The translations under genes were made by a program, and so were the position numbers. A DNA stretch of 64,000 nt from a virus, in the IMG/VR virus record IMGVR_UViG_3300010391_000058, positions 19,490 to 83,489 of that record, one strand, 5' to 3'. The notes below the pieces were generated by a model, which saw only the letters and a program-made list of their open reading frames with translations, was not told where the DNA came from and searched no databases. This document shows, piece by piece, positions 4,451 to 51,686 of this stretch (its first letter is position 1; every line of letters begins with the position of its first letter).

Positions 4451-4621
4451 ATGGAGACAACGAAGCAACAATGGTTGGAGCACTTGATGAAACTAAAAGA
4501 GTATGAAAAGGAATTATATATATGGTTAAAAAAACGAATGAAAAAGGCTGGAGAGGTAATAGTTATTGATGAAAGCAATACGCCTCCGCTGCCTCCAAAA
4601 TCACCGATAGAAACAAAATAG
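4451..4621 (+). CDS. Small hypothetical protein (56 aa, Pro-rich C-terminus)
   Basis: Read by hand: METTKQQWLEHLMKLKEYEKELYIWLKKRMKKAGEVIVIDESNTPPLPPKSPIETK*. Fills the gap between neighbours. Confidence 0.65.
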   Translation: METTKQQWLEHLMKLKEYEKELYIWLKKRMKKAGEVIVIDESNTPPLPPKSPIETK

Positions 4622-4642
4622 TTAACCTTAAACCTAAATGTC

Positions 4643-4834
4643 ATGGCACGCAATCTGTATGTAGTAAAATTCAATGAGACAACGGATCTATTCATGATTC
4701 ATTACGATCCGAATTATTCTCTTTGTGAGTGGGGTGGCCCCAATCACCCGGACGTAATGACCTGGGAAACGCTGGCTGCAGCTCAGCAGGTGGCCGCATC
4801 AATTAACGGAGGCACAGTAGGCACTCCAAAATAA
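4643..4834 (+). CDS. Hypothetical protein
   Basis: ORF with an AT-rich start region, in operon. Confidence 0.65.
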   Translation: MARNLYVVKFNETTDLFMIHYDPNYSLCEWGGPNHPDVMTWETLAAAQQVAASINGGTVGTPK

Positions 4835-4840
4835 TATTGA

Positions 4841-5326
4841 ATGAGAAAGTATAAGAAGGGGTTTATAGTTTATTTCCCGGTTACACTGGTTGCAATCCAG
4901 GTAATGATTAACCTTTTGTCTTTTATAGACAAGGGGCTTTACCTATCAACGGGATTCTATTTGAACATGCTATTTGGCACCAATGTATATTTCGCTTTGT
5001 TTCTGATCATTCTTACATTCAGTATCAAAGCCTGTTCAGTTAGTAAGTGGGCCGCAATAGCCGAATGTGCTTTTGCAGTAAACTATATGGTCATTCAGCA
5101 GGATAACCTTTATAATATTCTATTCCAGGTTATTGTAGGTGTCTTGGCGATCTTTGCAACCTTCTATCATTTCATAAGGAAATTTCCGCTTTGCAGGCTG
5201 AGCTTGCTGGCTAAGTTTTATAAGAAATTAATAAAAAGCGGATGTAATTGGAATAAAGCATTTGAGGCATGGCAGAAAGATTTAGATAATAAACTTGAAA
5301 AACAATACCATGAATTTAAGCATTGA
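4841..5326 (+). CDS. Four-TM membrane protein
   Basis: Four hydrophobic segments. Confidence 0.65.
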   Translation: MRKYKKGFIVYFPVTLVAIQVMINLLSFIDKGLYLSTGFYLNMLFGTNVYFALFLIILTFSIKACSVSKWAAIAECAFAVNYMVIQQDNLYNILFQVIVGVLAIFATFYHFIRKFPLCRLSLLAKFYKKLIKSGCNWNKAFEAWQKDLDNKLEKQYHEFKH

Positions 5327-12575: not shown

Positions 12576-12604
12576 ATTTCATTCACTTCAAAAACTTCGC
12601 ACAA

Positions 12605-12835
12605 ATGAAAGTCATAAAACAGCCCTTTATCGGGCAACCTACAAACCAGGCAACCGGGTGCAGCGGCATTCAGGCGCTGGTGGAATCCATTTACATTCCA
12701 TACAGGGGCCAATTAATTGAACGGACATTAACCGGGTTTTCAGTAGATGGTGCCCCGGTGGGATCAGTGGAGGCAGCTAAGGAGCTGATAGATGGAAAGC
12801 GGGCATGGCAGGGGAAATCAGTAGTTAACTTTTAA
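12605..12835 (+). CDS. Early hypothetical protein
   Basis: Preceded by AAAACTTCGCACA. Confidence 0.65.
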   Translation: MKVIKQPFIGQPTNQATGCSGIQALVESIYIPYRGQLIERTLTGFSVDGAPVGSVEAAKELIDGKRAWQGKSVVNF

Positions 12836-12845
12836 ACTTCGCAAA

Positions 12846-13229
12846 ATGAAAATAACAGATACAGAAAAAAGAATATTGCAGAACCTACATTTGAAAGGAT
12901 GCACCGGAAAGATGGGATCACTTAATAAGGATCAACGGGGGAAGATATTAAAAGGCCTCCAGGATAAAGGATTGCTGGACAAAAATTGCCGGCCAACGCA
13001 AAAAGGCATTGAAGTTTCAGCCCCCTTTTATGTAGCGACAAATGAAGATAATTATGATGAGTGGGAGGGTGTTGTAATAGATAAGATCGAAGAGTTTTGC
13101 GAAGTAAGCCGGTCCGATGCTCAGGGTATTGTCGAAGCTCAGCCGTTTTACATGCAGCAGTGTTGGGCAAAAGGAATGACCGGCGAAGAGACAGCAAGGT
13201 TTATAGATGCAAGAAGTGTTGTAAAATAA
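12846..13229 (+). CDS. Early hypothetical protein (possible wHTH N-terminus)
   Basis: Preceded by AAACTTCGCA. Confidence 0.65.
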   Translation: MKITDTEKRILQNLHLKGCTGKMGSLNKDQRGKILKGLQDKGLLDKNCRPTQKGIEVSAPFYVATNEDNYDEWEGVVIDKIEEFCEVSRSDAQGIVEAQPFYMQQCWAKGMTGEETARFIDARSVVK

Positions 13230-14532: not shown

Positions 14533-14601
14533 TAACCACTCCATGTTCACATGATTTTAAACAATATTGGAAACATTTTTAAATAATAAAACTTCGCACA
14601 A

Positions 14602-15375
14602 ATGACAAAACAAGATGTATTAAAACAGTGTACCATTGAGGGTAATATAGTTCGCCTTCCAAACATTAAGCTGGACAGAAAACTTTATTTGGAAGTATCT
14701 ACAGCCCTTGGAGGCATAGCCGCTGGAGGGATCGGTGGCACATGGAACCGGCAGTTAAAAGGCTTTGTATTTGAAAAAGGATATGAGGATGAGCTTGCTT
14801 CACTCATGGCCAAAATATCGGGGGGAGAAAAAATAAACCTGCAGCAAGAATTTCAGTTTTTTGAAACACCGGATTTACTTGCTAATTGGCTGGTTGAATT
14901 AGCTGATCCTAAAATGACCGATTTTATACTGGAGCCCTCAGCAGGCCGGGGCGCAATTGTCAGGGCAATATGGAAAAGATTACCGGAAAAGATAATTTTT
15001 GGTTGTGAGATACAGCCATCTAATGTAAAAGCATTGAAGGCCATGGGTCCTTTCTATTCCAATATTACAGAAGATTTTTTGGAATTGGAGCCTTCATTAG
15101 AGTTATTCGATAAGATCATTGCAAACCCGCCTTTCAATAAGAACCAGGATATTGATCACATACAGCACATGTATAAATGCTGCAAACCAGGGGGCCGGAT
15201 CGTTTCAGTTGCAAGCAACCATTGGATGGAAGGGGGCAATAAAAAGGAAGCTGAATTCAGGGCCTGGTTATTCGGATTGAAAGCCAAAGTGCATGATATC
15301 GAAGAGGGAATATTTAAAGACAGCGGCACCATGGTAAGTACATGTGTGATCGTTATTGATAAACCTTTAAAATGA
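14602..15375 (+). CDS. Amino (N6-adenine-type) methyltransferase
   Basis: QFFETP, LEPSAGRG, NPPF motifs. Confidence 0.85.
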   Translation: MTKQDVLKQCTIEGNIVRLPNIKLDRKLYLEVSTALGGIAAGGIGGTWNRQLKGFVFEKGYEDELASLMAKISGGEKINLQQEFQFFETPDLLANWLVELADPKMTDFILEPSAGRGAIVRAIWKRLPEKIIFGCEIQPSNVKALKAMGPFYSNITEDFLELEPSLELFDKIIANPPFNKNQDIDHIQHMYKCCKPGGRIVSVASNHWMEGGNKKEAEFRAWLFGLKAKVHDIEEGIFKDSGTMVSTCVIVIDKPLK

Positions 15376-18481: not shown

Positions 18482-18538
18482 TACTTGGATAATACCACAA
18501 AATAACATTACCTTCAATCTTTCAAAAACTTCGCATGC

Positions 18539-18781
18539 ATGGAAATACCTATTCAAATACTCGATAGCTGGAAGAAATTACGGAGCCATGGTGACGGTAA
18601 AAAGATCGTTAAAGCTAATAGTGGAAAGATTGGTGAAATAGACATTACCAGAGCTTTTAAAAATGGCAAGTGCTCAGATGATGTATTTGAGATCATAGGT
18701 AATTTTTACAAAGAAAAAGAACAACGGGTAGAAAAATATATGCCAGTGGTGGAGGATAAAGAAGAAGGGCCGGATGGCTAA
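18539..18781 (+). CDS. Small putative regulator (Cro-like?)
   Basis: Own promoter-like region after the XRE gene; AAAACTTCGCA before the ATG. Confidence 0.45.
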   Translation: MEIPIQILDSWKKLRSHGDGKKIVKANSGKIGEIDITRAFKNGKCSDDVFEIIGNFYKEKEQRVEKYMPVVEDKEEGPDG

Positions 18782-21443: not shown

Positions 21444-23018
21444 TTTTTAACCAGTAAAAAAGTAAATATTATGGCAGCAAAGTGGTATTACGCTCAACAG
21501 AAAAAGGCAATGGAAATTCTGAAATCAAAGTTTGAAAACTTCCCGTGTAACTTTCAAGCCTTTACTGATAACCGGATAGTAGAAAACTATACGTGTTTCA
21601 ATCCAAAGGAAGGCGCTGGTTATCCAAGTGGAACGATTATGGAGGTACATATAACCAAAGGAGCCAAGAAGCCGGTAATGGTTATTTATGAGCTCAAATT
21701 GGTGGCATCAAATTAAAAGTACTATGGAGATATTCATTCTTGTAGTCCTGATCTTGCTCACAATATTTGTGATTATAGGATTTATTGGGGCGGTAATGTC
21801 AGGGGTAGTATGGCAATCAATAGTCATGGGTATCCTTTCAGCTCTTGGAGTAATAGCTGTTATTTTCAAAATACTTCAAACTTAAATTTATGCTAACCAC
21901 AGAACAATTAATGAAGCCCAGGTATAAGGTTATTGCTTATTACCCAGGTTGCCCGTTTAATGTTGGCAATATTTTGATGCAAGCAGTAGATAATGGGAAA
22001 CTGTTTTGGAGTAAGTTGGAAACAGGGGAGTGGGGTGCACAGGTTAACGATATTCACCTTTACCCTCACCTATTCCAACCCCTCCAATGGTGGCAGGAAC
22101 GGGATGTGAAAGATATGCCGGAGTATGTAAAACACATACAAACAGGAAGGGTTTGTCGGGTGGCAGATGCTAACGAAAAGTATCCTAGTGGGTTTATGAT
22201 TGATTATCCAATGACAGAATGTTGGATTGTATATAAAGACTGTATACCGTGTACTGAAGCAGAATATCAACAATACATAAAGTCAAAACAATGAAAGCAC
22301 TTCTTATAAATAATAAGGAGATAATTCTGGATGGCGTAAAATATACTGGTTGTCCTGAATTAGAAGAGTATAAGGAATATACCATTGTTGACGAAATTCC
22401 GGCATTTTGCGGTCACGCACCTCTTTATGTAATAGAGGAAAGTGATCGTTGGTTGCTACAAATGAGATTTGTTGTTATGACTAATCGGGCTGAAGAGGAA
22501 GAAGGGATCACACTGGATGAATGGCTTTTACAAATAAAATAAAACTAGCAATATGAGTGTTTTCAGATTACCAAAAGACCTGCAACCGGGGGATATATCA
22601 ATTAATCATGGGTTATGGCCGGGGCCAAACTATAACCTGATCGAACAGATCATGAAGGATCACATGGAGAAAGCAGCCAAAAAGAAAGATGATTTTATTA
22701 AAAGTAAGATCATTGAAAAGGGATACGGTCACTTGCTTGAAGGGATCGAAAAACGGATATTTCCAAAAATTGTCTGCATAAGAGACGATAGTATGCCAAC
22801 CTGGATTTATTACTACGCTGACAATAACACGGATGAAGGTGATTTTATTGTCGCAATTCAGGATTACACTTTTGACACGAACACTGATCCGAATAATTTT
22901 GGTGTAATGATGAATTGTTCCTTTAAGTGGCAGGACACAGAGCCACTAAAAATAACCCGGAAAAACATGGCTGAATAGAATAATATTGTTAACTTCAAAC
23001 ATCTAAAAACTTCGCACC

Positions 23019-23276
23019 GTGAGCAAGAAAAAAAGGGTAACACTGAATATAAACCTTGATGATATCAGGGCTCAGTACACGGGGTTTGTTTTTCATATCT
23101 TCCGCAACGGGACTAAAAGATTATTTAGAACTGTTAAGGTGACAGGCAATACAACTATTTTTAATCTTCCTGCCGGGGAGTATTTGTTTAAGCTTATTGT
23201 CCTCCATAGGAAAAAACATTGGTGGGAGGCAAGGGTTAAAACCGAAATTAAGTCCGGATATATAGCGGTACCATGA
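23019..23276 (+). CDS. Hypothetical protein (GTG start)
   Basis: Preceded by AAAACTTCGCAC. Confidence 0.6.
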   Translation: MSKKKRVTLNINLDDIRAQYTGFVFHIFRNGTKRLFRTVKVTGNTTIFNLPAGEYLFKLIVLHRKKHWWEARVKTEIKSGYIAVP

Positions 23277-26244: not shown

Positions 26245-26742
26245 TAAAATAAGTATTTTGGAATACGATCTAGGCGAAGTCAGAGAAGCAGAAATTTTGA
26301 ATATATTTAAAGAGAACGAAGATACACGCATGGATATTATTACTTATAGATACTTTGGTAAAATTTTAAAAGTTTGGCATTATAGAATAAGAAGAAGATT
26401 TGAGTTTGAGTCTGCAATTGAGCAAGCTGAAAAATATAAATAAATGAGTATAGAGATTACAGATAATCTATTAAAGGAATTGATTGAATTATGTAAGTGC
26501 GAAGTTTCAATCTCGGTGAATACTCATCGAAATTATTATGAAACAGTAGAAGATAACTTGCGTGATGTTATTGACAATAAGGAAGTATCTGATGAGGTGT
26601 ACCAGGAAATGAAAAGAAGAGACACTGTTATTCGTGTCCAAGCTTATCCGGATACTCCAGTCGGTTTTTACTCAGCATACCATTGGGATATCAGTATAGC
26701 ACTGCAGGAAGTTATTGAATCAATTAAAGCAGAAAGGAAGTA

Positions 26743-42739: not shown

Positions 42740-43363
42740 ATGAGTGAAGAGACTAATCAACCAGCTGCAACAGCCCTGGCACCGATTACATGGGAGCCAA
42801 AAAAAGTGTATGTAAAGGATTTGAAAGAAAATCCACAGAACCCCAAAATAATTACTGAAGCAGGTAGGCGGCGCTTGCATTTGTCTTTGGATAAATTCGG
42901 GTTGGCCGGCACCATGTCAGTGAATGATGATCTTACAATTATAGACGGTCATAGCCGAAAATCAGAATTGGAAATGAGGGGTATTGAAGAGGTTTGGGTA
43001 TCAGTTCCATCCAGGCCGTTGACAGATGAAGAGTATAAAGAAATGAATGCAATGTTTGATCATGCCAGGGCCGGAGAAGTAGATAAATTCATGACTGAAA
43101 ACCTTTTCAGGGATGAAATGCTGATTGAATGGGATTTGAAGAGCCCAAAAAAAGAGGCTGGAGAAAAAGGGTTGTTCCCGATTGTGCCGAAGTTCGATGA
43201 AAAGCATGATGCATTCGTTATAATCTGTCAAACGGAAAGTGAGATATCTTTTATTCAGAATGCATTGATGCTGGAAGAGAATAGCAGCTACAAAAATAAA
43301 AACACCGGTATCACATTTGTAACCACTGGAAAAAACTTTATTAAGGTATGGCAATCGAAATAA
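42740..43363 (+). CDS. ParB/Srx-like domain protein
   Basis: NPQNPK...KFG...IIDGHSR. Confidence 0.75.
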   Translation: MSEETNQPAATALAPITWEPKKVYVKDLKENPQNPKIITEAGRRRLHLSLDKFGLAGTMSVNDDLTIIDGHSRKSELEMRGIEEVWVSVPSRPLTDEEYKEMNAMFDHARAGEVDKFMTENLFRDEMLIEWDLKSPKKEAGEKGLFPIVPKFDEKHDAFVIICQTESEISFIQNALMLEENSSYKNKNTGITFVTTGKNFIKVWQSK

Positions 43364-44076
43364 AGGTGGTGATCCCTTCAGCTGGAAGGCCCCATAGACA
43401 GAGCACAATAAAACATGTAGCCAATGCAATCATTTGTGTTCCGGAAAAGCAAAAGGCGCTGTATGAAGAGCGGAATAAGGATAATGAGATTGTGGCCCAC
43501 CCGGACAGCATTCTTGGTTTGGGGCCTAAAAGGAATTGGATCTATGAGAAGTTTGGAAACGTGTTTATGATAGATGATGATACCCATGGTTTGCAGCGGC
43601 TATATGAAACCAGGGTAACGATCTGCAGCCCTGAGCAGGCTTATGATATCATTCAGAGCCTTGGCAACCTGGCAAAGATATCCGGCAATTATTTATATGG
43701 CTTTTCGAAGTATGCAAACACCCTCCAATATACAGGCCTGAAGCCATTTGCGTTGACCGGTTACATCAATGGAGTTGGTATTGGGTTGATCGAAAAGAGC
43801 CTGTTGAAGTTTTCAGATAAAATAACATGCAACAACGATGTTTTCATTTCATGTTTGAATGCTCACTATTACCATACATGCTTTATTGATACCAGGTTTT
43901 CATTTAAACAGGATGGAGTGAATAAGGGTGTTGGTGGTATGTCGTTGATCAGGAACCCGGAAACTGATAAAAATGATATTGAATTTTTAAAAAAGTCATT
44001 TGGCAGTGTGCTAAAGTTTAAGCAGCGGGCAGGATCAGCGAAGCAATGGAACATAATGTTGAAACTTCCTTTTTAA
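43348..44076 (+). CDS. GT-A glycosyltransferase, GREB1/TAGT-like
   Basis: IPSAGR, KRNWI, MIDDD, NKGVGG; translationally coupled to the ParB-like gene. Confidence 0.65.
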   Translation: MAIEIKVVIPSAGRPHRQSTIKHVANAIICVPEKQKALYEERNKDNEIVAHPDSILGLGPKRNWIYEKFGNVFMIDDDTHGLQRLYETRVTICSPEQAYDIIQSLGNLAKISGNYLYGFSKYANTLQYTGLKPFALTGYINGVGIGLIEKSLLKFSDKITCNNDVFISCLNAHYYHTCFIDTRFSFKQDGVNKGVGGMSLIRNPETDKNDIEFLKKSFGSVLKFKQRAGSAKQWNIMLKLPF

Positions 44077-44260
44077 GGGCTGCACTCAGCAATTGTGCTA
44101 AAATCTGATGCAAGAAATGTGGCTTCCTTGGACGATCAGGCAATTTTCAGCATTACCTACACAAAAGAAAGTGCTTGCTAGAATTGAAGCTAATGGCCTC
44201 CCAGGTCATTTTTGGGGGTTTAGGGCCCCCGGAACCGGTCAAAATATGACTTCCCCCGGC

Positions 44261-44419
44261 AATTGATTCATTTTCAGGGCCTCATAATTGATTCATTTTC
44301 AATAAAGAATTTACTATAATTTATTGATTTACAATAGTATTGGATCAATCAGGTTGCTATATTTGATTTATCAAAGAGGGATAAAGACCCCGATTTTTAA
44401 ACTTAAAAACTCCGCAATC
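44261..44419 (+). promoter_or_regulatory. Early promoter cassette, copy 1
   Basis: Two TGATTCATT repeats 25 bp apart, TTGCTATATTTG at 44354, leader hairpin, AAAACTCCGCA. Confidence 0.75.
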
Positions 44420-44656
44420 ATGTCAACGAAAATCATTTTAAAAAAAGAGTGGACTTCAAAAGTAACTTTGTCAAATAGCCAGGTGCTAGTTGTAAAATGG
44501 GTTGCTGCCCTTTCAAAGAAAGGTTCTTTCATTATAGCCAATTTCGTAGGTGACAGTAAAAAAATGTCAGTATATCAGCGGGGAATGTCTTGGTCAAAAG
44601 ATCACTTCTTTTTCTTTGATGCCGTAAAAAGAGCCAAAAAAAACTTACCCCGATAA
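44420..44656 (+). CDS. Early hypothetical protein
   Basis: True start ATG 44420. Confidence 0.6.
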   Translation: MSTKIILKKEWTSKVTLSNSQVLVVKWVAALSKKGSFIIANFVGDSKKMSVYQRGMSWSKDHFFFFDAVKRAKKNLPR

Positions 44657-44686
44657 TCAATTTATAAACCTAAAAACTTCGCACAA

Positions 44687-44998
44687 ATGAAAAATACACC
44701 TCAAAAAACCTTTACGGCAATAATGAATGTTTGCCAGGTAAACAACTTCCTTTCTTCAGCCACAAACATGTGGTGCAATTCAGTAGATGAACTCAGGACG
44801 TTCAAAAAGTTCATCCGCATTGAAGAGACAAAACCGTATGACCAGTTGACTGATAAAAATACATTCGTTTCCGCTCAGGAATTACGGGAGTACATGCCGG
44901 CGCAATTATTCAGAGAAATGGAATGTGTGGTTGTCACCTGTCTTATTGAACAGCGGTGGATTGTTGAAATTAAACCTATAAACTCAGTTGTATGTTAG
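44687..44998 (+). CDS. Early hypothetical protein
   Basis: Preceded by AAAACTTCGCACA. Confidence 0.65.
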   Translation: MKNTPQKTFTAIMNVCQVNNFLSSATNMWCNSVDELRTFKKFIRIEETKPYDQLTDKNTFVSAQELREYMPAQLFREMECVVVTCLIEQRWIVEIKPINSVVC

Positions 44999-45172
44999 TA
45001 GTTAAAACCCAGGCCGAAATTGATGAAATGAAAGAAACGGATAGCTATAAAAATGGTGATATCAAGATTATCAGCACAAAAGATATTGGAAACGGCCTGT
45101 TTGAATTGATATTGGAAATCAATTAACCTTCAAAGTGTCTCTTATTTTTAAACCATAAATAAAAACTTCGCA

Positions 45173-46294
45173 ATGAAAAAAACAAGTAAGGCCCCTGCAG
45201 CCAAAAGTGCAGGAAAAAAAGTGATCAATGTAAAGACAGTGGTGACTACCACAACCAAGATGCCCAAAGCCAAAAAGGAAAAGAGCACGGTGCCAGGGTT
45301 TGAAAACCTTCCTGCCGATGCGGTTGAATTCGAAACTCCGGCCCTGGTAGTTGATATGCTACAAACCAATGATGTAAGCGGTGGATCAGTGCTTACCCAG
45401 GTGCCTGAGCCGGAACCAAAAACAGCTCAGGAAATATTTTTGGCAAAGGAGAAAAAGGCAGCTTTGAAAAATGATAACATCTTTATTGATGTTAAGCTGG
45501 AAAACCTTTCTAATCTTACCGGGTTGAAAGTAAGGAAGGGCTTCAGTAAGGTAGTTGTGGCTGAGGGTGAAATAGTAAATGTAGTTAGTCCGAATTACTT
45601 CCTTTTAAAGAATGAAGATTTTTTCCTGGAAGTCGAAAAGAAGTTGATGGAGGCTGATATCAAATACATCAGCAGATCAATTAACCGGCAGAACAGTGAT
45701 TTTGCAGTTGATTACATTTTAGCTGATGAGAATTACCATGTGGATGTAAAAGGCGGGAAAGATAAAATTATCCCGATGCTGAGATTTACGAACATGTACG
45801 GTGGTGGCCCATGTACCGGGAAGTTCGGATTTTTCAGGGAAGTATGTGCCAACGGATTGCATGTTGCCGAAACTAAAGTTGGCTTCAGGATTGGACACAG
45901 GATCAACAGATCAGAGTTGATAATGCCGAACATTAAAGAGCTGGTGGGCCAGTTTTTAAGCAATGAATTTTATAGCCTGCACAAAAAGTTCAAAGTACTT
46001 GCTGAAACCCCGATCACAGACCTGAGTGAATTCGTAAAGTTCACATGTACAAAAATGGATCTGTTTAAGTATGAAGCCAGTGAAAAGAACCCGGATACCC
46101 CAAGTGCAAAAGCTCAGTTGGTGATGGATACCATTTTAGCTGAAAGTAAGGAGTTGGGTGTTGAACCGAATCTTTGGATTGGATACAATGCCTTCAATGT
46201 AGCGGTGCATAGCAGCAATAAGAAGGCCTTCAGTAAGCAAATGAAAACTGATGGTGTTTTATTCAATACGGTTTATGAAATGGCTGCGAATTAA
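45173..46294 (+). CDS. DUF932-like protein with Lys-rich N-terminus
   Basis: VVSPNY.LLKN...N.YGG...REVCANG...H; preceded by AAAACTTCGCA. Confidence 0.65.
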   Translation: MKKTSKAPAAKSAGKKVINVKTVVTTTTKMPKAKKEKSTVPGFENLPADAVEFETPALVVDMLQTNDVSGGSVLTQVPEPEPKTAQEIFLAKEKKAALKNDNIFIDVKLENLSNLTGLKVRKGFSKVVVAEGEIVNVVSPNYFLLKNEDFFLEVEKKLMEADIKYISRSINRQNSDFAVDYILADENYHVDVKGGKDKIIPMLRFTNMYGGGPCTGKFGFFREVCANGLHVAETKVGFRIGHRINRSELIMPNIKELVGQFLSNEFYSLHKKFKVLAETPITDLSEFVKFTCTKMDLFKYEASEKNPDTPSAKAQLVMDTILAESKELGVEPNLWIGYNAFNVAVHSSNKKAFSKQMKTDGVLFNTVYEMAAN

Positions 46295-46316
46295 TTAGGA
46301 CGGTCAATAGTAGATG

Positions 46317-46346
46317 AAACCCCTGGCAGTTTGCCGGGGGTTTTTT
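46317..46346 (+). terminator. Intrinsic terminator
   Basis: AAACCCCTGGCA-GTT-TGCCGGGGGTTTTTT. Confidence 0.85.
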
Positions 46347-46419
46347 ATTCAGGTAAGGCACAATAAAGAGGGCCGGGAAACGGCAGGAAACAGGCCTAAA
46401 ACCAGGTAAAAGTGTGTTT

Positions 46420-46580
46420 AACTGATTCATTTTTAAGGCTTCATAACTGATTCATTCTCAATCCGTGTTTTTATATAATATATTGAAATACAGGTACTTT
46501 GGATTAAAAGCCTTGCTATATTTGAAAGATCAAAGGGGGAAAAGAAAACCCCGATTTTTAAACCTCAAAAACTTCGCACT
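46420..46580 (+). promoter_or_regulatory. Early promoter cassette, copy 2
   Basis: Two TGATTCATT repeats 25 bp apart, TTGCTATATTTG at 46513, leader hairpin, AAAACTTCGCAC. Confidence 0.75.
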
Positions 46581-46934
46581 ATGTTACATTATTCAAAAAT
46601 GATAGACCTTCTGGAAATGCCAGGTACAAAGCAAATGCTGATTAATTATTATACGGGCAAAGCTTCAGGAACGGATGTAAAAAAATACTTTGCGGATCAT
46701 ATAGCCGGGATGGATGATTTTTACCGGAATGCCTTTAATTCATATTTAAGCGATTTGCCGGAAAGTTATTTGGATGATGATTCAATTGAATCGTCAAATT
46801 CAAAGCTAAGTGGTATTTACGATTTTGATTTTGATGAAGCTCCGGAAGGATTGCAGGATAGGGCCGAAATTATCCGGTGGGATATATGCCGTGTTGTTAT
46901 ATCATTTTACCAGGGCCAAAAACAAACAGTATAA
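46581..46934 (+). CDS. Early acidic hypothetical protein
   Basis: Preceded by AAAACTTCGCAC. Confidence 0.65.
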   Translation: MLHYSKMIDLLEMPGTKQMLINYYTGKASGTDVKKYFADHIAGMDDFYRNAFNSYLSDLPESYLDDDSIESSNSKLSGIYDFDFDEAPEGLQDRAEIIRWDICRVVISFYQGQKQTV

Positions 46935-46960
46935 TTATCAACCTCTAAAAACTTCGCACC

Positions 46961-47275
46961 ATGGCAAAGCCGACACTATTACCGGATGAAACTTTTTCAG
47001 TAGTAACCTTTTCCAGGGAATCACTTGAAAAACAAACTGATACTTTATTAACGGACACGTTGATAAATTTCGAAACCAATTATGCGCCTCTTTATCTGCA
47101 TAATGAAATTGGATCTGGAGTACATTTATTCAGCAGGGAGGTGTTAACCAGGCTTTGCGAAGGCAAAGAGGATGTTATGGCAATACCGGGCTATGCTGAG
47201 ATGAAAGCAGACCTGGAAGAGATAGGCCGGATCATGGATGAGCAGAAAGCCACTTATTTCCGGGTGGTAAAATAA
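46961..47275 (+). CDS. Early hypothetical protein
   Basis: Preceded by AAAACTTCGCAC. Confidence 0.65.
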   Translation: MAKPTLLPDETFSVVTFSRESLEKQTDTLLTDTLINFETNYAPLYLHNEIGSGVHLFSREVLTRLCEGKEDVMAIPGYAEMKADLEEIGRIMDEQKATYFRVVK

Positions 47276-47300
47276 AATATTAATCATTAAAACTTCGCAC

Positions 47301-47945
47301 ATGAAAGTAGTAACCAAAAAGGGCTATGACTTTTTCGTAGTAACCAGCGCATTTCAGAAAGCCATTAGAAGAGGGGATGAAACTGTAGCCGTATATCTTC
47401 TGGTGGAATTATTCAACTCAGGGTATGAAAAGTATTTATGGAAGCGGCTAAAGATCATTTCCAGTGAGGATATCGGTTTAGCGGTTCCAAATATGCCGGC
47501 AATCATTCAGGCCCTATATACCAGCTACCAGGAAACGATGAAGGACAGCGAAACAACGGCAAAGGAAGGGATGAGTAGCAGGCCGGAGAGAATGTTTTTA
47601 CTTCATGCGGTATTACTTCTTACCAGGTGCAAGAAGTCCAGGCTAGTTGATTGGGTGTTAATCGAAGCATGGAGAACCCATGATGAGAATCACATGAAAA
47701 TTCCGGACTATGCTTATGATATGCATAACTTTAAGGGCAAGCAGATGAACCGGGGGATAGATCATTTTTACGATGAAGGGACTTTATTAGGAAACTTTTG
47801 TGAGCAACCAGGTGAAAAGGAATGGAAGGAGAAAGCCAGAACAGCACACAAAACAAAGCCGGGCAAATTAAAGTTTGCAGTAGTAAAGAAGGCAAATATT
47901 TCACAGCAACAGGTTATGTTTGAGCCGGAAGAAGATGCAAAATAG
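47301..47945 (+). CDS. MgsA/RarA C-terminal-like protein lacking the AAA+ domain
   Basis: SAFQKAIRRGD...WKRLKIISSEDIGLA...IPDYAYDMH. Confidence 0.7.
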   Translation: MKVVTKKGYDFFVVTSAFQKAIRRGDETVAVYLLVELFNSGYEKYLWKRLKIISSEDIGLAVPNMPAIIQALYTSYQETMKDSETTAKEGMSSRPERMFLLHAVLLLTRCKKSRLVDWVLIEAWRTHDENHMKIPDYAYDMHNFKGKQMNRGIDHFYDEGTLLGNFCEQPGEKEWKEKARTAHKTKPGKLKFAVVKKANISQQQVMFEPEEDAK

Positions 47946-47999
47946 GACGGTTATTATTTATTCATTCGAAATTATTTAACTTCTAAAAAATAAACTTAT

Positions 48000-48254
48000 A
48001 TGAAAAAACTATTATCAGCAGTTATCCTTACACTGCTATTTGCATCCTGCAAAAAGGAAGCTTGCAAAAGAGTAACCATTGAAACAATTAATGGTTGTGA
48101 CAGTCCAATTAAGATCACATATATTATGAAAGATCAAGTTGTATGTGGATCAGAGCTGGCAGATATCCAAAGACGAAACCCGAATACTTATGTTGATATG
48201 CCAGGCCCCGGTGGTGGTACATGTAGAATAACCACGCTAATTATTATACAATAA
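48000..48254 (+). CDS. Lipoprotein
   Basis: MKKLLSAVILTLLFASC lipobox. Confidence 0.75.
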   Translation: MKKLLSAVILTLLFASCKKEACKRVTIETINGCDSPIKITYIMKDQVVCGSELADIQRRNPNTYVDMPGPGGGTCRITTLIIIQ

Positions 48255-48707
48255 TTTCAGTAAAAAAAGTTTTATGAAAATAATCGGATCAACAATAACA
48301 GGGGCCCAAACCTATGTTTGTGTATCAACTGTTTACAATGACAAAGAAATAGACTTCATAGTGAAGGCAGATGCCAATGGTATCGTTGTTGGTAATTATA
48401 AAAGCGGCATGGAAACATCTTACCACCCGTATTTCAATGAAACCAGCGCTGAGAATAAGAAGGCACATTTTAAGTTCATAAAAGATTATGTGGAAAAGAA
48501 GATGAAGCCTACCATGAATCTTGATGTTTACGAAAAGGAAACGATCATTGATGTTGAATTCAAAAGCATGGACAAGCATTTCAAATGGAGCGGGACCCCT
48601 TCGCAGCTTTATAGTGCATTAAAGGCAGAACAATTGATGAATAATTTCAATAAGCAAACCGCTGAAAAAAATAACAGGTCCGATGCCTGATTAAAATTTC
48701 ATTGCAC

Positions 48708-48715
48708 TATATTTG
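48708..48715 (+). promoter_or_regulatory. -7 promoter box TATATTTG for the candidate sRNA
   Basis: Exact TAnnTTTG with no + ORF downstream before the terminator. Confidence 0.7.
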
Positions 48716-48720
48716 TATTT

Positions 48721-48786
48721 CTACTCCCTGGTTACTGTGCGAAGTTCCCAGGGACGGGAGCCCGGCTGAAAAGCGGGGCTTTTTTT
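48721..48786 (+). ncRNA. Candidate trans-acting antisense sRNA (~65 nt)
   Basis: Stem TCCCTGG/CCAGGGA; loop TTACTGTGCGAAGTTC is complementary to AACTTCGCACA; terminator AGCCCGGCT-GAAA-AGCGGGGCT plus T run. Confidence 0.7.
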
Positions 48787-49876
48787 ATTGGCTGAGTGCA
48801 AGCCTGGAAGCCTTCAGTGCTGCAGCAATTACCTGATGCATGTCATAGTACCGATATGAGGCAAGGCGGCCCCCGAATATTATGTTTTCCTCCAGCTGGG
48901 CAAGGTCATTATAAGCCTTAAATTTACGGCTGTTTTTCATATCGTTAACCGGGTAATATTGTTCCATTCCCCGGCTCCAGGCTTGCGGAAATTCGTATGT
49001 AACAACGGTGGCAGGGGAGACGGTATTTTCAAAATGCTTATGTTCTATGGATCTTGTATAAGGTTCCAGGTGGCTGGTGTAATTCATTACAGCACAACCC
49101 TGGAAGTTTTCTACAGGCTTAACCATGGTATCAAAGCGAAGTGACCTGTATTCAAGATCACCGAATTGGTAGCTGTAGAATTGATCCAGGGGCCCGGTGT
49201 ACACAATCTTGCGGGCAATATTTTTCCAGTGCTCAGTATTGGTAAAATAATCAATCTTTAGAATCAGATCAACACCGGAAAGCAGGCCCTTAATGAGCGG
49301 GTTATAGCCTCCAATTGGGATCCCCTGGTAACGATCATTAAAGTAGTTGTTATTGAAAGTGAATCGAACCGGGAGGCGCTTAATGATGAAGGCGGGGAGC
49401 TCAGAACATTGCCGGCCCCATTGTTTTTCCGTGTATTCCTTTATGAGACGGTTATATATGTCATAGCCAACTAATTTCAAGGCCTGTTGTTCCAGGTTAG
49501 CAGGGATACCAGCAAATGATTGCATTAGAATTCTTTGCTTTGCGGCTGCCGGATCAGTGATACCCCAAATCTGGTAAAAGGTATTCATGTTGAAAGGCAG
49601 GTTATAAAGCTTTCCCCCGGTGGTAGCCATTACGGTATGAATGTAGTTATTGAATGAGACGAACTGGTTAACGAATTTCCAGATCGTTTCATCATTGGTG
49701 TGGAAGATATGAGCGCCATGCATGTGTACGTTGATCCCTTCTATATTTTCGCAGGCAATGTTTCCACCGGCCACGGATCGTTTATCAATTACCAGGCAGG
49801 ATTTACCAGCTTGTTTTGCCTGATGAGCAAAAACAGAACCGAAAAGGCCGGAGCCAACTATTAAAAAATCGTACAT
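48785..49876 (-). CDS. glf: UDP-galactopyranose mutase
   Basis: GSGLFG, HMHGAHIFHT, YNLPFNMNTF, KEYTEKQWG, LEYRSL, YYPVND, GRLASYRYYDMHQVI. Confidence 0.95.
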   Translation of the reverse strand: MYDFLIVGSGLFGSVFAHQAKQAGKSCLVIDKRSVAGGNIACENIEGINVHMHGAHIFHTNDETIWKFVNQFVSFNNYIHTVMATTGGKLYNLPFNMNTFYQIWGITDPAAAKQRILMQSFAGIPANLEQQALKLVGYDIYNRLIKEYTEKQWGRQCSELPAFIIKRLPVRFTFNNNYFNDRYQGIPIGGYNPLIKGLLSGVDLILKIDYFTNTEHWKNIARKIVYTGPLDQFYSYQFGDLEYRSLRFDTMVKPVENFQGCAVMNYTSHLEPYTRSIEHKHFENTVSPATVVTYEFPQAWSRGMEQYYPVNDMKNSRKFKAYNDLAQLEENIIFGGRLASYRYYDMHQVIAAALKASRLALSQ

Positions 49877-50262
49877 AAAAATTTTGTGGGTGAATTCAAA
49901 ACACTACATTTACGGGAGAAATGTAATTGTAATCGGGTGAAAAGATAGTGATAACGGGTAATTAGCACAAATTTTTTAAACATAAACCGCATGAAAAATA
50001 AAAAACATTACCCGATAGCCTTGTATAAGGGCCGTGGTAAGCAGCCCTTCTATTGGGTAAAGACAATGGTTAAAAATGGCAGGCAGATATCCAAATCTTC
50101 CGAAAACTATTTGACCAAACAAAAAGCCCTGCAGGGGTTGGCAGCTGATGTGAAAATAACATTTGCAGCTATGAGCCTTGCACCTAATGTAAGCCTTGTG
50201 TACCAGGATTGCACAAATAAAATATCTACAGCGGAGGTATTATTTATTAAAGTGGCTGGTTA

Positions 50263-51012
50263 ATGGGCTTGTTATTAATATTATCGCAATCAAATAGCGG
50301 CAGTACATGGCTGTCCAGCTGTTTAAAGGATCAGTATAAATTATTCCCCAAAGAGTATTTTAATTCTATTTTAAACTATGAAATTCAGCAATATGCTGAT
50401 ACGATCCTTGGCAATGAACAGGAGTACTTCAATCTTGCTGTAAAGGCAAGTAAAAATTCATTTGAATACATGATGCGTTATACATGGTTAGCCCAAAACA
50501 CCTATAATGCAACAAAGGAAAATTACCTGGCATTCAATATACAGAATATAAAGCCATACTTCAAAGAGGTGGTGATGCTATTCAGATCAGTTAAGTATTG
50601 CTTCCCGCCTCAAAGGAGCCGGGTGAAGGTATGGTATAACCAGTGGTATCAATCGTTATTAGCCCATTCCAAGATATGCCCTGAGATAACAAAATTCAAT
50701 AATTGTATTATTCTTACTCATCAAAAAAAAGCTTTACTGGCCTGGCAGGTAGTTAGATGGCAGCTGGAGCTTGAAGCAGACAGGTTGTATATCCCGACAA
50801 TTGACTATGATCGTTTGATGAACTATAGTAAGGAAGAGATAGATTTTAATTATGGGAAGTGGCTTGATGCGGATAAGATCGTTGAAACCAGGAAGCCATG
50901 TACAGTGCCAACACCGGAGCAGCTTAAATTCACTGATGAGTGGAGTGAGGCGCTAATTTATTTTAAGGAAATTCAGCAGTTCCAAATAGTACAAAAACAA
51001 TGGATGTATTAA
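50263..51012 (+). CDS. Sulfotransferase-fold-like protein
   Basis: N-terminal SQSNSGSTWL resembles the PAPS-binding RSGSTWL loop; EYFN, TKE, IDYD follow. Confidence 0.45.
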   Translation: MGLLLILSQSNSGSTWLSSCLKDQYKLFPKEYFNSILNYEIQQYADTILGNEQEYFNLAVKASKNSFEYMMRYTWLAQNTYNATKENYLAFNIQNIKPYFKEVVMLFRSVKYCFPPQRSRVKVWYNQWYQSLLAHSKICPEITKFNNCIILTHQKKALLAWQVVRWQLELEADRLYIPTIDYDRLMNYSKEEIDFNYGKWLDADKIVETRKPCTVPTPEQLKFTDEWSEALIYFKEIQQFQIVQKQWMY

Positions 51013-51686
51013 GGCAATCAGTAGTTGAAGCGGTAAATAAGATCAAGGGCCTGCAGGTGCCTGGATCTTCAACCAGGGATGGCATTGCATATCAGCCATT
51101 ACCTGACTTCTTTGGCTTTAAATATATTGATTCTCAGAAAGGTGCCACTGTTAAAGATGTTTTGCGCCTGATCCAGCCGCTTATTCATAGTGGTAAAACC
51201 CTTCTTGATATCGGGGCAAACGTTGGCTATTATTCTTTTATGCTTACTGAGGATAAGGATATGACCTGCACGGTGATCGAAAAGGATCAAAACAACGTTG
51301 CTGTAATACAGGCTTTGAACGAAATGATGATTGCTACAAACCGGGCCCCGGTAAATATCAAAAGCATGCTGGTATCAGGCAAAGACAGGTTTGATTATAT
51401 ACTTATGCTCAATGTTCACCACTGGATAGAGAAAGAGCTTGGCATGGTTGGAACGATCAAATATATGACTGAGGTAGCCGGATGCTGCCAGGCCATGTTT
51501 TTTCAAACTGCACATCAACAAAGCAGATCATCATATAGAGTTGGTTATCTGAAGGATGAAAGAGATATTGAAAGGTATTTGAATGCATGTGGTTGGGAGT
51601 ATGTAATCAGGTTAGGGAATACACAACCAGAAGAGCCACGTTATTTATTTTATTGCCATCATGGTGAAAATAGTATTATAAGTTAA
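51000..51686 (+). CDS. Class I SAM-dependent methyltransferase
   Basis: YQP, LLDIGANVGYYSF, FDYILMLNVHHW. Confidence 0.8.
   Translation: MDVLRQSVVEAVNKIKGLQVPGSSTRDGIAYQPLPDFFGFKYIDSQKGATVKDVLRLIQPLIHSGKTLLDIGANVGYYSFMLTEDKDMTCTVIEKDQNNVAVIQALNEMMIATNRAPVNIKSMLVSGKDRFDYILMLNVHHWIEKELGMVGTIKYMTEVAGCCQAMFFQTAHQQSRSSYRVGYLKDERDIERYLNACGWEYVIRLGNTQPEEPRYLFYCHHGENSIIS

What the first reader, a model, noticed from the sequence alone, without database searches (positions are those of the whole stretch)
48708..48786. Phage sRNA whose hairpin loop is antisense to a start-codon motif shared by about 12 early genes (candidate RNA-controlled regulon)
Seen: in the gap between ORF 48274-48690 and the convergent glf gene there is a -7 box TATATTTG (48708-48715). 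It is followed by a 7-bp stem TCCCTGG/CCAGGGA (48725-48731/48748-48754) with a 16-nt loop UUACUGUGCGAAGUUC, then a GAAA-loop terminator and U tract, with no ORF. Loop nt 48736-48746 (UGUGCGAAGUU) are the exact reverse complement of AACUUCGCACA, the motif over the starts of 11-12 genes up to 36 kb away. Pairing is 9-11 bp. At 23006 it extends, past one mismatch, across the GUG start codon. Known: loop-presented seeds pairing over start regions block initiation, and RNA-based control of phage immunity or antirepressor synthesis exists in P4 (CI RNA) and P1/P7 (C4 RNA), but with few, local targets. Inference: one small RNA switches a dispersed early/host-takeover gene set, either as an early-to-late shut-off or as RNA immunity/lysogeny control. 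I know of no described equivalent in Bacteroidota phages. Activation or ribosome guidance (these hosts largely ignore Shine-Dalgarno pairing) cannot be excluded.
Basis: partly seen in the sequence, partly recalled or inferred. Interest (0 to 1): 0.95.

Follow-up and report, generated by a model that had tools for sequence, protein, structure and literature searches.

The report
Phage small RNA mirroring early-gene start tags
An uncultured 83-kb phage carries a gene for a roughly 65-base RNA whose exposed loop is the mirror image of a short tag placed directly in front of the start codons of 11 of its early genes, and related phages keep the same arrangement, so one small RNA probably controls translation of that whole gene set.

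Summary
AACTTCGCACA with up to 1 mismatch occurs 11 times in the window against 0.78 expected. Eleven + strand genes carry it 0-2 nt before the start codon. The exact reverse complement lies in the 16-nt loop of a hairpin between a TAnnTTTG box and a terminator.

Three distantly related IMG/VR phages have the same RNA gene: box, hairpin, terminator. Their stems differ by compensatory changes. One of them uses another tag (AATTCTCA), and its loop carries the matching C-to-A change. A third tag (ACATAACA) is mirrored by a 5'-terminal seed in two further phages.

Most likely this is a trans-acting antisense RNA that blocks initiation on a dispersed early regulon. No integrase was found, which favours early-to-late shut-off over immunity. 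No transcript or regulatory effect was seen, so the direction of control is inferred.

Closest known are c4 RNA of P1/P7 and the unexplained start-associated sequences of Cluster K mycobacteriophages. My literature searches found no description. Earlier agents of this scan reported analogous RNAs in other phage genomes. The arrangement has therefore been seen before on other DNA, but not, as far as I could find, in print.

The parts
48708..48715 (+). Bacteroidota-type -7 promoter box TATATTTG of the RNA gene
   Evidence: Read. The same TAnnTTTG box lies 5-13 nt before the hairpin in all 3 relatives. It is a consensus match only; no transcription start was observed.
48721..48786 (+). Predicted ~66-nt small RNA (the 5' end is inferred from the box; the 3' end is in the U tract)
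   Evidence: Folds into two hairpins, -33.4 kcal/mol, z = -4.28, 0 of 200 shuffles as stable.
48725..48754 (+). Hairpin 1: 7-bp stem (48725-48731 with 48748-48754) and 16-nt loop (48732-48747)
   Evidence: Covariance model R1 scores it 39.6 bits and the three homologues 34.0-35.3 bits, against 17.4 bits for the next best match in 1.34 Mb. Stem pairs differ by compensatory changes among the four phages.
48736..48746 (+). Seed TGTGCGAAGTT, exact reverse complement of the start tag AACTTCGCACA
   Evidence: It is unpaired apart from a weak 3-bp inner helix in the predicted fold.
48756..48786 (+). Intrinsic terminator: GC hairpin with GAAA loop (core 48760-48779), then T7 (48780-48786)
   Evidence: The T run follows the hairpin only on the + strand. 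All 3 relatives have an equivalent terminator.
12593..12607 (+). Start tag AACTTCGCACA plus ATG 12605 (76-aa ORF, no family)
   Evidence: duplex -17.3 kcal/mol.
12835..12848 (+). Start tag AACTTCGCAAA plus ATG 12846 (127-aa ORF, no family)
   Evidence: duplex -12.8 kcal/mol.
14590..14604 (+). Start tag AACTTCGCACA plus ATG 14602 (257-aa N6 DNA methyltransferase-like protein)
   Evidence: PF02384 at 8.4e-07 and phrog_9133 at 2e-52; duplex -17.3 kcal/mol.
18527..18541 (+). Start tag AACTTCGCAT plus ATG 18539 (80-aa ORF)
   Evidence: duplex -14.2 kcal/mol.
23008..23021 (+). Start tag AACTTCGCACC plus GTG 23019 (85-aa ORF); pairing can extend over the GTG
   Evidence: It has the best duplex of all 148 start regions, -19.0 kcal/mol.
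44408..44422 (+). Variant tag AACTCCGCAA plus ATG 44420 (78-aa ORF), preceded by a TATATTTG box at 44358-44365 and a leader hairpin
   Evidence: The duplex is weak, -8.3 kcal/mol.
44675..44689 (+). Start tag AACTTCGCACA plus ATG 44687 (103-aa ORF)
   Evidence: duplex -17.3 kcal/mol.
45164..45175 (+). Start tag AACTTCGCA abutting ATG 45173 (373-aa DUF932 protein)
   Evidence: PF06067 at 1.4e-07 and phrog_21518 at 2.8e-86; duplex -13.0 kcal/mol.
46570..46583 (+). Start tag AACTTCGCACT plus ATG 46581 (117-aa ORF), preceded by a TATATTTG box at 46517-46524 and a leader hairpin with U run
   Evidence: duplex -15.9 kcal/mol.
46950..46963 (+). Start tag AACTTCGCACC plus ATG 46961 (104-aa ORF)
   Evidence: duplex -15.5 kcal/mol.
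47291..47303 (+). Start tag AACTTCGCAC overlapping ATG 47301 (214-aa MgsA_C-like protein)
   Evidence: PF12002 at 8.4e-09; duplex -17.1 kcal/mol.

Best explanation
The region 48708-48786 is a gene for a small non-coding RNA of about 65 nt. It appears to be read by the host polymerase from a Bacteroidota-type -7 box and ended by an intrinsic terminator.

Its first hairpin presents an 11-nt seed in an open loop. The seed pairs with a phage-private tag, AACUUCGCA(CA), that sits 0-2 nt upstream of the start codon of 11 non-structural genes. These include a DNA methyltransferase-like gene, a DUF932 gene and many small ORFs.

Pairing at -12 to -1 should occlude the 30S binding site, and may also expose the mRNA to decay. 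As the RNA accumulates, the tagged early set would be turned down together. This would be an RNA-based early shut-off.

Shown here: the sequence anatomy, its conservation, stem covariation, loop and tag changing together, and the target ranking.

Inferred: transcription of the RNA, pairing in vivo, repression as the sign of the effect, and the timing.
For: 1. Enrichment and placement. The motif occurs 11 times against 0.78 expected, and 0 of 100 shuffles reach 11. Eleven copies sit 0-2 nt before starts of + strand genes in the non-structural region.

2. Position of the seed. The exact 11-nt complement lies in the loop of a hairpin flanked by a TAnnTTTG box and a terminator. Chance expectation in non-genic DNA is 0.003.

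3. Target ranking. With the loop as query, the 8 best of 148 start regions, and 10 of the best 11, are tagged genes.

4. Conservation. Records G001, G002 and G005 share only a few proteins with this phage, at 20-60% identity. Each has one opposite-orientation copy of its tag inside the same box-hairpin-terminator unit, on the strand of its target genes.
- All four RNAs fold into the same two hairpins, z = -2.9 to -4.3.
- The model scores them 34-39.6 bits, against 17.4 bits for the next match in 1.34 Mb.

5. Stem covariation. Counting outward from the loop, pair 1 is G-C in 4 of 4. Pairs 2-5 take 2-4 different standard pair types.

6. Loop and tag change together.
- G005 uses AATTCTCA at 12 of 12 exact copies, all before ATG. 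Its loop reads UGUGAGAA where this phage reads UGUGCGAA.
- On G005 start regions the G005 loop gives a mean of -9.9 kcal/mol, against -4.1 to -5.5 for the other three loops.
- The base after the 9-nt core is C in 15 of 23 tags where the loop offers G (own, G005), against 5 of 18 where it does not (p = 0.019).
- That base is G in 5 of 18 tags where the loop offers C (G001, G002), against 0 of 23 elsewhere (p = 0.011).

7. A third tag. ACATAACA (7 starts in G006, several in L289) is mirrored by an invariant GTTATGTTTTAT placed 3-4 nt after a -7 box in both records.

8. Accessibility. The tag region is predicted to be mostly unpaired in the mRNAs, 0.70 against 0.58 for 113 other genes.

9. Specificity of the tag. 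It is not a general feature of Bacteroidota phage starts. None of the 43 annotated starts of Flavobacterium phage FPSV-S1 shows a shared specific motif.

10. Lifestyle. No PF00589 or PF00239 recombinase was found in the complete genome.
Against: - No transcript has been seen. The only public run holding this DNA is a sediment DNA metagenome, so promoter use, RNA ends and abundance are unknown.
- The -7 box has no TTTG -33 element at the usual spacing (read). The hairpin could therefore be made mainly as the 3' end of the upstream operon.
- In G005 the pairing is only 8 contiguous bp plus 2 after a mismatch. Its loop pairs about as well with this phage's tags (-10.3) as with its own (-9.9).
- The tag at 44408 pairs weakly, -8.3 kcal/mol.
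- The strict 0-3 nt spacing to the start codon and the conserved A run before the tag are not required by simple occlusion. This suggests the tag has a further role.
- The loop and tag changing together is equally expected if both are sites for one sequence-specific protein.
- Only four hairpin-type homologues were found. With two near-identical twins, L141 and L395, the statistics rest on few lineages.
- A shuffled-loop control on duplex energy was not clean. Eleven start regions fall at or below -12 kcal/mol, against a mean of 4.3 and a maximum of 16 in 200 shuffles.
Confidence: 0.62

Rival explanations
1. The RNA does pair with the tag, but the effect is positive or of another kind. It could recruit or position ribosomes in a host that largely ignores Shine-Dalgarno pairing. 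It could protect the mRNA 5' region. It could guide a nuclease that processes the leader.
For: - The tag is pinned 0-3 nt from the start codon and preceded by an A run in all lineages, which is tighter than occlusion needs.
- The 5' part of the loop (UUAC, UUCC, UUUACC) is conserved although it does not pair with most targets.
- Several targets carry a hairpin just upstream of the tag.
Against: - The tag region is already predicted to be open, unpaired probability 0.70. There is therefore no inhibitory structure for the RNA to relieve.
- A duplex covering -12 to -1 lies inside the region the 30S subunit must bind (established knowledge of initiation, not tested here).
- No complementarity of the loop to rRNA was tested, because no host is known.
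Confidence: 0.12
2. The tag is a site for a sequence-specific protein. It could be a DNA-binding repressor acting like the stoperators of mycobacteriophage L5, or an RNA-binding translational repressor like T4 RegA. The reversed copy would then be one more DNA site, and the surrounding hairpin only a terminator-region structure.
For: - The sites are asymmetric, in one orientation relative to transcription, at gene boundaries of the non-structural region.
- The reversed copy changing with the tag in G005 is expected under this model too.
- In G006 and L289 the reversed copy overlaps the +1 region of a promoter-like box, a typical operator position.
- Pope et al. 2011 left 'RNA or protein' open for the analogous SAS (passages read).
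Against: - A double-stranded DNA site has no need to sit in the unpaired loop of a hairpin whose stem is kept by compensatory changes in four lineages, between a promoter box and a terminator with the T run on that strand.
- An RNA-binding protein would not recognise the complement.
- No repressor candidate or integrase was found (partial annotation only).
- The anchoring to the start codon points to the translation level.
Confidence: 0.1
3. There is no free-standing sRNA. The hairpin is the 3' untranslated end of the early operon that stops at 48690. It would act in cis on its own polycistronic mRNA or serve only as a stabiliser, and the -7 box would be fortuitous.
For: - In all four phages the unit lies directly after the last gene of the tagged early cluster, on the same strand, ahead of the packaging genes.
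- The -33 element is missing.
Against: - A TAnnTTTG box lies 5-13 nt before the hairpin in 4 of 4 lineages although the flanks are otherwise unalike.
- Tagged genes up to 36 kb away, and on the other strand in G005, cannot be on the same transcript.
- A 3'UTR-derived RNA would still act in trans, so this rival concerns biogenesis more than function.
Confidence: 0.1
4. The match is a chance complement between an ordinary terminator-proximal hairpin and an over-represented leader word.
For: One further reversed 10-mer lies inside an ORF at 26497 with no obvious role, so stray copies do occur.
Against: - The expectation is 0.003 in non-genic DNA.
- The same layout recurs in three distant phages, and the loop follows the tag in G005.
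Confidence: 0.02

Closest known systems
c4 antisense RNA of phages P1 and P7 (Rfam C4), with sar RNA of P22 as a second example
   Same: A phage-encoded RNA of about 70 nt whose complementary stretches are thought to sit in loops. It pairs around the ribosome-binding site of a phage mRNA to block translation (review PMC12197685, passages read).
   Different: - c4 and sar each control one antirepressor operon and serve immunity in temperate phages. Here one loop matches 11 dispersed genes in a genome with no integrase.
- There is no sequence or structure match to any Rfam model: 0 at gathering, and C4 is absent from the weak list.
- The host type is different.
Start-associated sequences (SAS/ESAS) of Cluster K mycobacteriophages (Pope et al. 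2011, PMC3203893)
   Same: - A phage-private asymmetric motif a few nt before the start codons of many non-structural genes.
- It is conserved across subclusters in front of unrelated genes.
- It occurs almost always in one orientation, with a single opposite-orientation copy not at a gene start in four phages.
- About half the sites have an inverted repeat just upstream.
- The authors left a host or phage 'RNA or protein' partner open (passages read).
   Different: - The SAS is GGGATAGGAGCCC and contains a Shine-Dalgarno core. The tag here is A/C/U-rich with no SD.
- No antisense RNA has been reported for the SAS. The 2025 survey PMC12699233 holds neither 'small RNA' nor 'antisense' and calls the function untested.
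- Its figures and supplements, which show the reversed copies, could not be seen here.
T4 RegA (translational repressor) and RegB (endoribonuclease)
   Same: They work alike in outcome: a phage factor recognises a short element in the initiation regions of many early mRNAs and shuts them off together (recalled knowledge, no call).
   Different: Those factors are proteins. Here the recognising factor appears to be an RNA, and the element is a private tag rather than the host's SD or an AU-rich start region.
Multi-target seed sRNAs of bacteria such as GcvB or RybB
   Same: One conserved single-stranded seed pairs with the initiation regions of many mRNAs (recalled knowledge).
   Different: - Those targets evolved complementarity piecemeal at variable positions, and the sRNAs depend on Hfq.
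- Here the targets share an identical tag at a fixed distance from the start codon, and the seed is presented in a loop.
- I recall that Bacteroidota, the likely host type, largely lack Hfq; this was not tested.

Membership tests
c4 antisense RNA (Rfam C4) | Match to the curated covariance model | tested here: not met
   0 matches at gathering score in the whole window. C4 is not among the 7 weak matches at 48650-48850, where the best is an unrelated family at 17 bits against a gathering score of 50.
c4 antisense RNA (Rfam C4) | Loop-presented segments complementary to the ribosome-binding region of the target mRNA | tested here: met
   The seed at 48736-48746 lies in the loop and is complementary to -12..-1 of 11 genes.
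c4 antisense RNA (Rfam C4) | Single antirepressor target; immunity function in a temperate phage | tested here: not met
   There are 11 dispersed targets, none annotated as an antirepressor. No integrase or resolvase in the complete genome.
Start-associated sequences of Cluster K mycobacteriophages | Consensus GGGATAGGAGCCC containing an SD core | tested here: not met
   The tag is AACTTCGCA(CA). The consensus is taken from PMC3203893.
Start-associated sequences of Cluster K mycobacteriophages | Motif a few nt before start codons, restricted to non-structural genes, in one orientation, with a lone reversed copy away from gene starts | tested here: met
   Eleven copies 0-2 nt before starts between 12.6 and 47.3 kb, none before packaging or structural genes. 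Reversed copies lie at 48737 (the RNA loop) and 26497.
Trans-encoded base-pairing sRNA (general class) | Own promoter and intrinsic terminator with no conserved ORF | tested here: inconclusive
   The box and terminator are present here and in 3 of 3 relatives. These are consensus matches only, and the -33 element is absent. A mechanical 44-aa TTG frame overlaps the unit.
Trans-encoded base-pairing sRNA (general class) | Conserved unpaired seed with structure supported by covariation | tested here: met
   Four lineages show different stems and the same loop core, TG(C/A)GAAGTT.
Trans-encoded base-pairing sRNA (general class) | Detected transcript and a measured effect on targets | not testable with these tools
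   No RNA holder is listed for this DNA, and no cultured host is known.
Stoperator-type repressor sites (mycobacteriophage L5; recalled) | Asymmetric sites bound by a phage repressor in a temperate phage | tested here: inconclusive
   Asymmetry and orientation fit. No repressor was identified and no integrase found. Protein binding cannot be tested here.

The most novel reading that the evidence does not exclude
Phages of SD-independent hosts mark a class of early genes with a private 'address tag' fused to the start codon and encode a cognate anti-tag RNA as the master switch. Tag and anti-tag drift together between lineages: three tag versions and two RNA architectures were seen here. The unexplained start-associated sequences of mycobacteriophages, with their lone reversed copy, may follow the same logic. 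That would make this a widespread, undescribed mode of temporal gene control in phages, and a ready-made orthogonal translation switch.
Probability: 0.45. Interest if true: 0.88.

Novelty: new variant of a known kind. Interest (0 to 1): 0.8.

Why it matters
Known phage antisense RNAs each act on one or a few local genes. Coordinated early shut-off is known only through proteins such as T4 RegA and RegB.

A single loop-presented seed matched to an identical tag on 11 dispersed start codons would be an RNA-run regulon built by design rather than by piecemeal target evolution. The tag and seed also change together between phages. It occurs in hosts where translation initiation signals are still poorly understood.

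It would offer an explanation to test for the 15-year-old puzzle of start-associated sequences. It would also provide naturally orthogonal tag and anti-tag pairs for gene control in Bacteroidota.

The limitation is that everything rests on sequence comparison in uncultured phages.

Tried and rejected
Promoter hypothesis. I first suspected the tag was a phage promoter giving leaderless mRNAs, because terminator-like hairpins precede some copies. I rejected this. Host-type -33/-7 boxes lie at variable distances (about 20-60 nt) upstream, while the tag stays fixed to the ATG.

Expression. No RNA holder is listed for window 44000-50000. The only holder is a sediment DNA metagenome that may be the source.

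Searches for more homologues:
- Close-relative searches with single proteins found 1 and 0 loci.
- Motif pattern scans returned mostly chance single hits. In one search, of 108 loci only L036, L109 and L091 showed the tag at repeated gene starts. In one search, of 115 loci only L289 and L337 did.
- The exact loop 17-mer found 5 viral loci, of which 3 are real (G001, G002 and the twin L141) and 2 are chance.
- A 20-mer loop pattern found only G005 in viral contigs. In metagenomes it found 10 loci, of which only L395, a twin of G005, is real.
- Genome contigs: the A3 protein profile found nothing. The 17-mer gave 27 hits, none with hairpin context or tagged starts. No prophage copy and no named host were obtained.
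- Model R1 over 103 kin-gene loci was run on window plus L145-L243 only (100 of the sources held). It found no member beyond the four. L244-L247 and the pattern-scan loci were not searched with R1.

Analyses that did not work as intended:
- A loose box-hairpin-terminator descriptor gave 327 mostly spurious candidates, and its 7-mer target count was too noisy to use. A lead in L147/L148 did not hold.
- MAFFT and cmalign would not place the 1-nt loop length difference. A4, A6 and A7 are out of register on the 3' arm for G001 and G002. I therefore did not run the count of structure pairs and tabulated the pairs directly.
- The shuffled-loop energy control was uninformative.

Host and controls:
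- TerL gives only a weak host hint. The best identities, 41%, are to Flavobacterium phages, but 15 of 34 records are Vibrio phages.
- The MgsA_C-like protein hits Actinobacteria phages.
- FPSV-S1 has no tag, so no cultured model was found.

Rows dropped before counts. From I dropped one - strand site each in G000 (74602) and G001 (59534) as lacking the A-rich context. The filter used kept 11, 9, 9, 16 and 7 sites. The G005 position counts use the 12 exact copies.

Papers:
- PMC3203893, PMC12699233 and PMC12197685 were read as passages only.
- The others appear as search listings.
- Supplements are closed. SAS Figures S3 and S4, which show the reversed copies, could not be seen.

The claim of 'not in print' rests on the searches and on the review.
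Full report
WHAT IS THERE

The window is bases 19490-83489 of an 83,489-bp IMG/VR virus record with direct terminal repeats, rated complete. Almost all genes are on the + strand.

The last small ORF of the non-structural region ends at 48690. The convergent UDP-galactopyranose mutase gene occupies 48785-49876 on the - strand (PF03275, 1.7e-74).
- TATATTTG at 48708-48715.
- Nine bases of spacer.
- A 7-bp stem, 48725-48731 with 48748-48754.
- A 16-nt loop, TTACTGTGCGAAGTTC.
- One base of spacer.
- A GC-rich hairpin with a GAAA loop.
- Seven T at 48780-48786.

RNAfold returns these two hairpins at -33.4 kcal/mol, with z-scores of -3.2 (77 nt) and -4.3 (66 nt). The T run follows the second hairpin only on the + strand. 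The unit is therefore oriented like the genes upstream of it.

THE TAG

AACTTCGCACA with at most one mismatch occurs 11 times in the window. The expectation is 0.78, and no shuffle of 100 reached 11. Printing the contexts shows that eight copies end 0-2 nt before an ATG or GTG.

A scan of the whole genome with the 10-nt core and up to two mismatches adds three more start-proximal copies, at 18527, 44408 and 45164. All 11 tagged genes are on the + strand, between window 12.6 and 47.3 kb. No packaging or structural gene carries the tag. Terminase is at 53702, and the first 19.5 kb of the genome has no start-proximal copy.

The products include:
- An N6 DNA methyltransferase-like protein (14602).
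- A DUF932 protein (45173).
- An MgsA_C-like protein (47301).
- Eight small proteins with no family.

The tag is not a promoter. Two tagged genes (44420, 46581) have a TATATTTG box about 55 nt upstream, with a TTTG or TTGG at -33 spacing. In relatives the box lies 20-60 nt away, while the tag stays fixed to the ATG. The tag is therefore a 5'-leader element anchored to the start codon.

THE MATCH

Loop bases 48736-48746 are the exact reverse complement of the 11-mer. An exact 11-mer in either orientation is expected 0.003 times in the roughly 7 kb of non-genic DNA and 0.04 times in the whole genome.

I used the loop as query against the -30..+20 region of 148 predicted genes. The eight best duplexes, and 10 of the best 11, belong to tagged genes, at -19.0 to -12.8 kcal/mol. 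The median over all genes is -6.6. The variant tag at 44408 is weak, at -8.3.

The tag region is predicted to be mostly single-stranded in its mRNAs, 0.70 against 0.58 for 113 other + strand genes.

RELATIVES WITH THE SAME TAG

No cultured phage resembles this region; only glf matched. A pattern scan of IMG/VR for the tag plus ATG gave 108 loci. Three of them hold the tag repeatedly at gene starts.

Searching the whole records gave the following:
- G001, 61 kb: six forward copies and one reversed.
- G002, 29 kb: four copies in gene orientation and one reversed.
- G003, a 22-kb fragment rated 32% complete: two forward copies and none reversed.

In G001 and G002 the reversed copy lies, as here, in the loop of a hairpin. 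A TAnnTTTG box sits 11-12 nt upstream, and a GC hairpin plus T run follows on the strand of the target genes.

The stems are GGGGAG/CUCCCU and GUUAAGG/CCUUGAC, against UCCCUGG/CCAGGGA here. The loops read UUUACCUGCGAAGUUU(U/C).

These genomes share only a handful of proteins with the window's phage, at 25-59% identity.

A RELATIVE WITH A DIFFERENT TAG

Profile searches with two genes of the tagged cluster brought in 103 loci. One belongs to a complete 59,401-bp record, G005. Its genes carry aaaAATTCTCA before the ATG. All 12 exact copies are at gene starts, nine on the + strand and three on the - strand.

My first search for a perfect complement failed. I then found the unit at G005:9936-10036:
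- TAACTTTG box.
- A hairpin with inner stem GCAGG/CCUGC and an outer 8-bp stem.
- Loop UUCCUGUGAGAAGUUC.
- A terminator with seven T.

It lies after the last gene of the early cluster. It lies directly before a homologue of the window's gene 53205, which precedes the large terminase.

Compared with this phage, the loop differs by C to A exactly where the tag differs by G to T, giving UGUGAGAA against UUCUCACA. The pairing is 8 contiguous bp plus 2 after a mismatch.

Mean duplex energies:
- On G005 start regions: -9.9 for the G005 loop, against -4.1 to -5.5 for the other three loops.
- The G005 loop on this phage's tags: -10.3. Its specificity is therefore one-sided.

A second, flanking position also follows the loop. 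The base after the 9-nt core is C in 15 of 23 tags where the loop offers G, against 5 of 18 elsewhere (p = 0.019). It is G in 5 of 18 tags where the loop offers C, against 0 of 23 elsewhere (p = 0.011).

STRUCTURE SUPPORT

All four RNAs fold into the same two hairpins, z = -2.9 to -4.3. Counting outward from the loop, pair 1 is G-C in all four. Pairs 2-5 take two to four different standard pair types, while the loop core is kept.

A covariance model of the hairpin scores the four at 34.0-39.6 bits. The next match in 1.34 Mb of kin loci scores 17.4 bits.

I could not get a register-correct alignment, because the loops differ by one base. I therefore ran no formal pair-count control.

A THIRD TAG AND A SECOND ARCHITECTURE

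G006 (18.5 kb, 54% complete) and L289 use aaaACATAACA before the ATG. Both hold one reversed copy that is not at a gene start. In gene orientation it reads as a -7 box, 3-4 nt, then GTTATGTTTTAT, followed by a long hairpin whose sequence differs between the two.

In the pairwise alignment the box and seed form an invariant block amid diverged flanks. Here the anti-tag would be the 5' end of a transcript rather than a loop. This is weaker evidence: two related records and no clear terminator. It does show the same logic with a third tag.

WHAT IT MOST LIKELY DOES

A loop-presented seed pairing to -12..-1 of an open, A-rich leader should prevent 30S binding. That is how c4 of P1/P7 and sar of P22 are described to work (review PMC12197685).

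I therefore read the unit as a trans-acting repressor RNA for a tagged early regulon. Three observations favour an early-to-late shut-off over lysogenic immunity:
- The complete genome has no tyrosine or serine recombinase.
- No prophage copy of the loop was found in 185,579 species genomes. Only the G001/G002 loop version was tested.
- The gene sits at the early/packaging boundary.

The sign of regulation, the timing, and even transcription remain inferred. No RNA data set holds this DNA.

RIVALS

Activation or guidance cannot be excluded. The strict spacing to the ATG, the conserved A run, and the conserved but non-pairing 5' part of the loop are not explained by occlusion alone.

A protein that binds the tag would also make a reversed copy change with the tag. 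This could be stoperator-like on DNA or RegA-like on RNA. Loop and tag changing together is therefore not decisive between RNA and protein. What argues for RNA is that the reversed copy is always held unpaired between compensating stem arms, after a promoter box and before a strand-specific terminator.

The RNA might instead be the 3' end of the early operon. That changes its biogenesis, not its trans action. Targets lie up to 36 kb away, and in G005 some are on the other strand.

COMPARISON WITH WHAT IS KNOWN

No Rfam family matches.

The nearest described mechanism is c4/sar-type antisense control. It differs in having a single local target and an immunity role.

The nearest described pattern is the start-associated sequence of Cluster K mycobacteriophages. 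This is a private 13-bp motif 3-7 bp before the starts of non-structural genes. Four phages have a single opposite-orientation copy. About half the sites have upstream inverted repeats. The function is unknown, and the partner was left open as 'RNA or protein' (PMC3203893, passages). A 2025 survey still calls it untested and mentions neither small RNA nor antisense (PMC12699233).

My full-text searches found no paper describing an anti-start-tag RNA in Bacteroidota phages. The 2025 review of phage sRNAs lists none with a multi-gene regulon in the passages and table rows I read.

Earlier agents of this scan reported analogous RNAs in at least eight other phage genomes. None shares sequence with this one. 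I did not test those reports. One of them gave me the lead to the SAS paper.

VERDICT

The interpretation passed the comparative test that could be run. I rate it a new variant of a known kind: antisense translational control, extended to a tagged regulon. It is of high interest and lacks any expression or functional data.

Noticed in passing
window 26496-26506 (- strand copy; + strand reads GTGCGAAGTT): A second anti-tag 10-mer lies inside the + strand ORF 26444-26743, about 50 nt after its ATG. That mRNA would therefore also carry the complement of the start tag. An exact 10-mer is expected about 0.16 times per genome, so this may be chance.
   Followed up: no
window 44260-44306 and 46421-46464: Pairs of direct repeats (ATTGATTCATTTTCA twice; ACTGATTCATT(T/C)T(T/C)A twice) lie 50-100 nt upstream of the two TATATTTG promoters that drive tagged genes 44420 and 46581. 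They look like operator sites for a transcription factor.
   Followed up: no
window 44378-44398 and 46535-46559: Between the -7 box and the tag, both leaders hold a short G/C hairpin followed by GATTTTT (GGG..CCCC and GGGGG..CCCC). This is attenuator-like. Similar hairpins, without a U run, directly precede the tag at 3 of the 4 exact-core tagged starts in G002 (locus L109) and 1 of 2 in G003 (L091). They recall the inverted repeats (ESAS) upstream of mycobacteriophage SAS.
   Followed up: partly
L251 (G006) about 5030-5150 on the - strand; L289 about 4566-4686 on the - strand: Phages with the tag ACATAACA carry the anti-tag GTTATGTTTTAT 3-4 nt after a -7 box, followed by a long hairpin of differing sequence. 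This is a second candidate architecture for the same kind of RNA.
   Followed up: partly
L405 (Flavobacterium phage FPSV-S1, MK764442.1): None of its 43 annotated start regions shares a specific motif; they are simply A-rich. The tag is therefore not a general feature of Bacteroidota phage initiation, and this cultured phage is no model for it.
   Followed up: yes
G001 starts 40982 and 46110; G002 starts 27090 and 18160 (record coordinates of the start codon): Tag variants reading AATTTCGCA replace C with T opposite a loop G, which keeps a G-U pair. Among the nine single transitions I counted in core variants, eight are compatible with pairing. This is not significant by my rough estimate (p about 0.14).
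   Followed up: partly
window 48785-49876 (- strand), 42740-44076 and 50263-51686: A phage-borne UDP-galactopyranose mutase gene converges on the RNA gene. A ParB-like gene plus a glucosyltransferase-like gene, and a weak methyltransferase-like gene, lie nearby. Together they suggest DNA or surface sugar modification.
   Followed up: no
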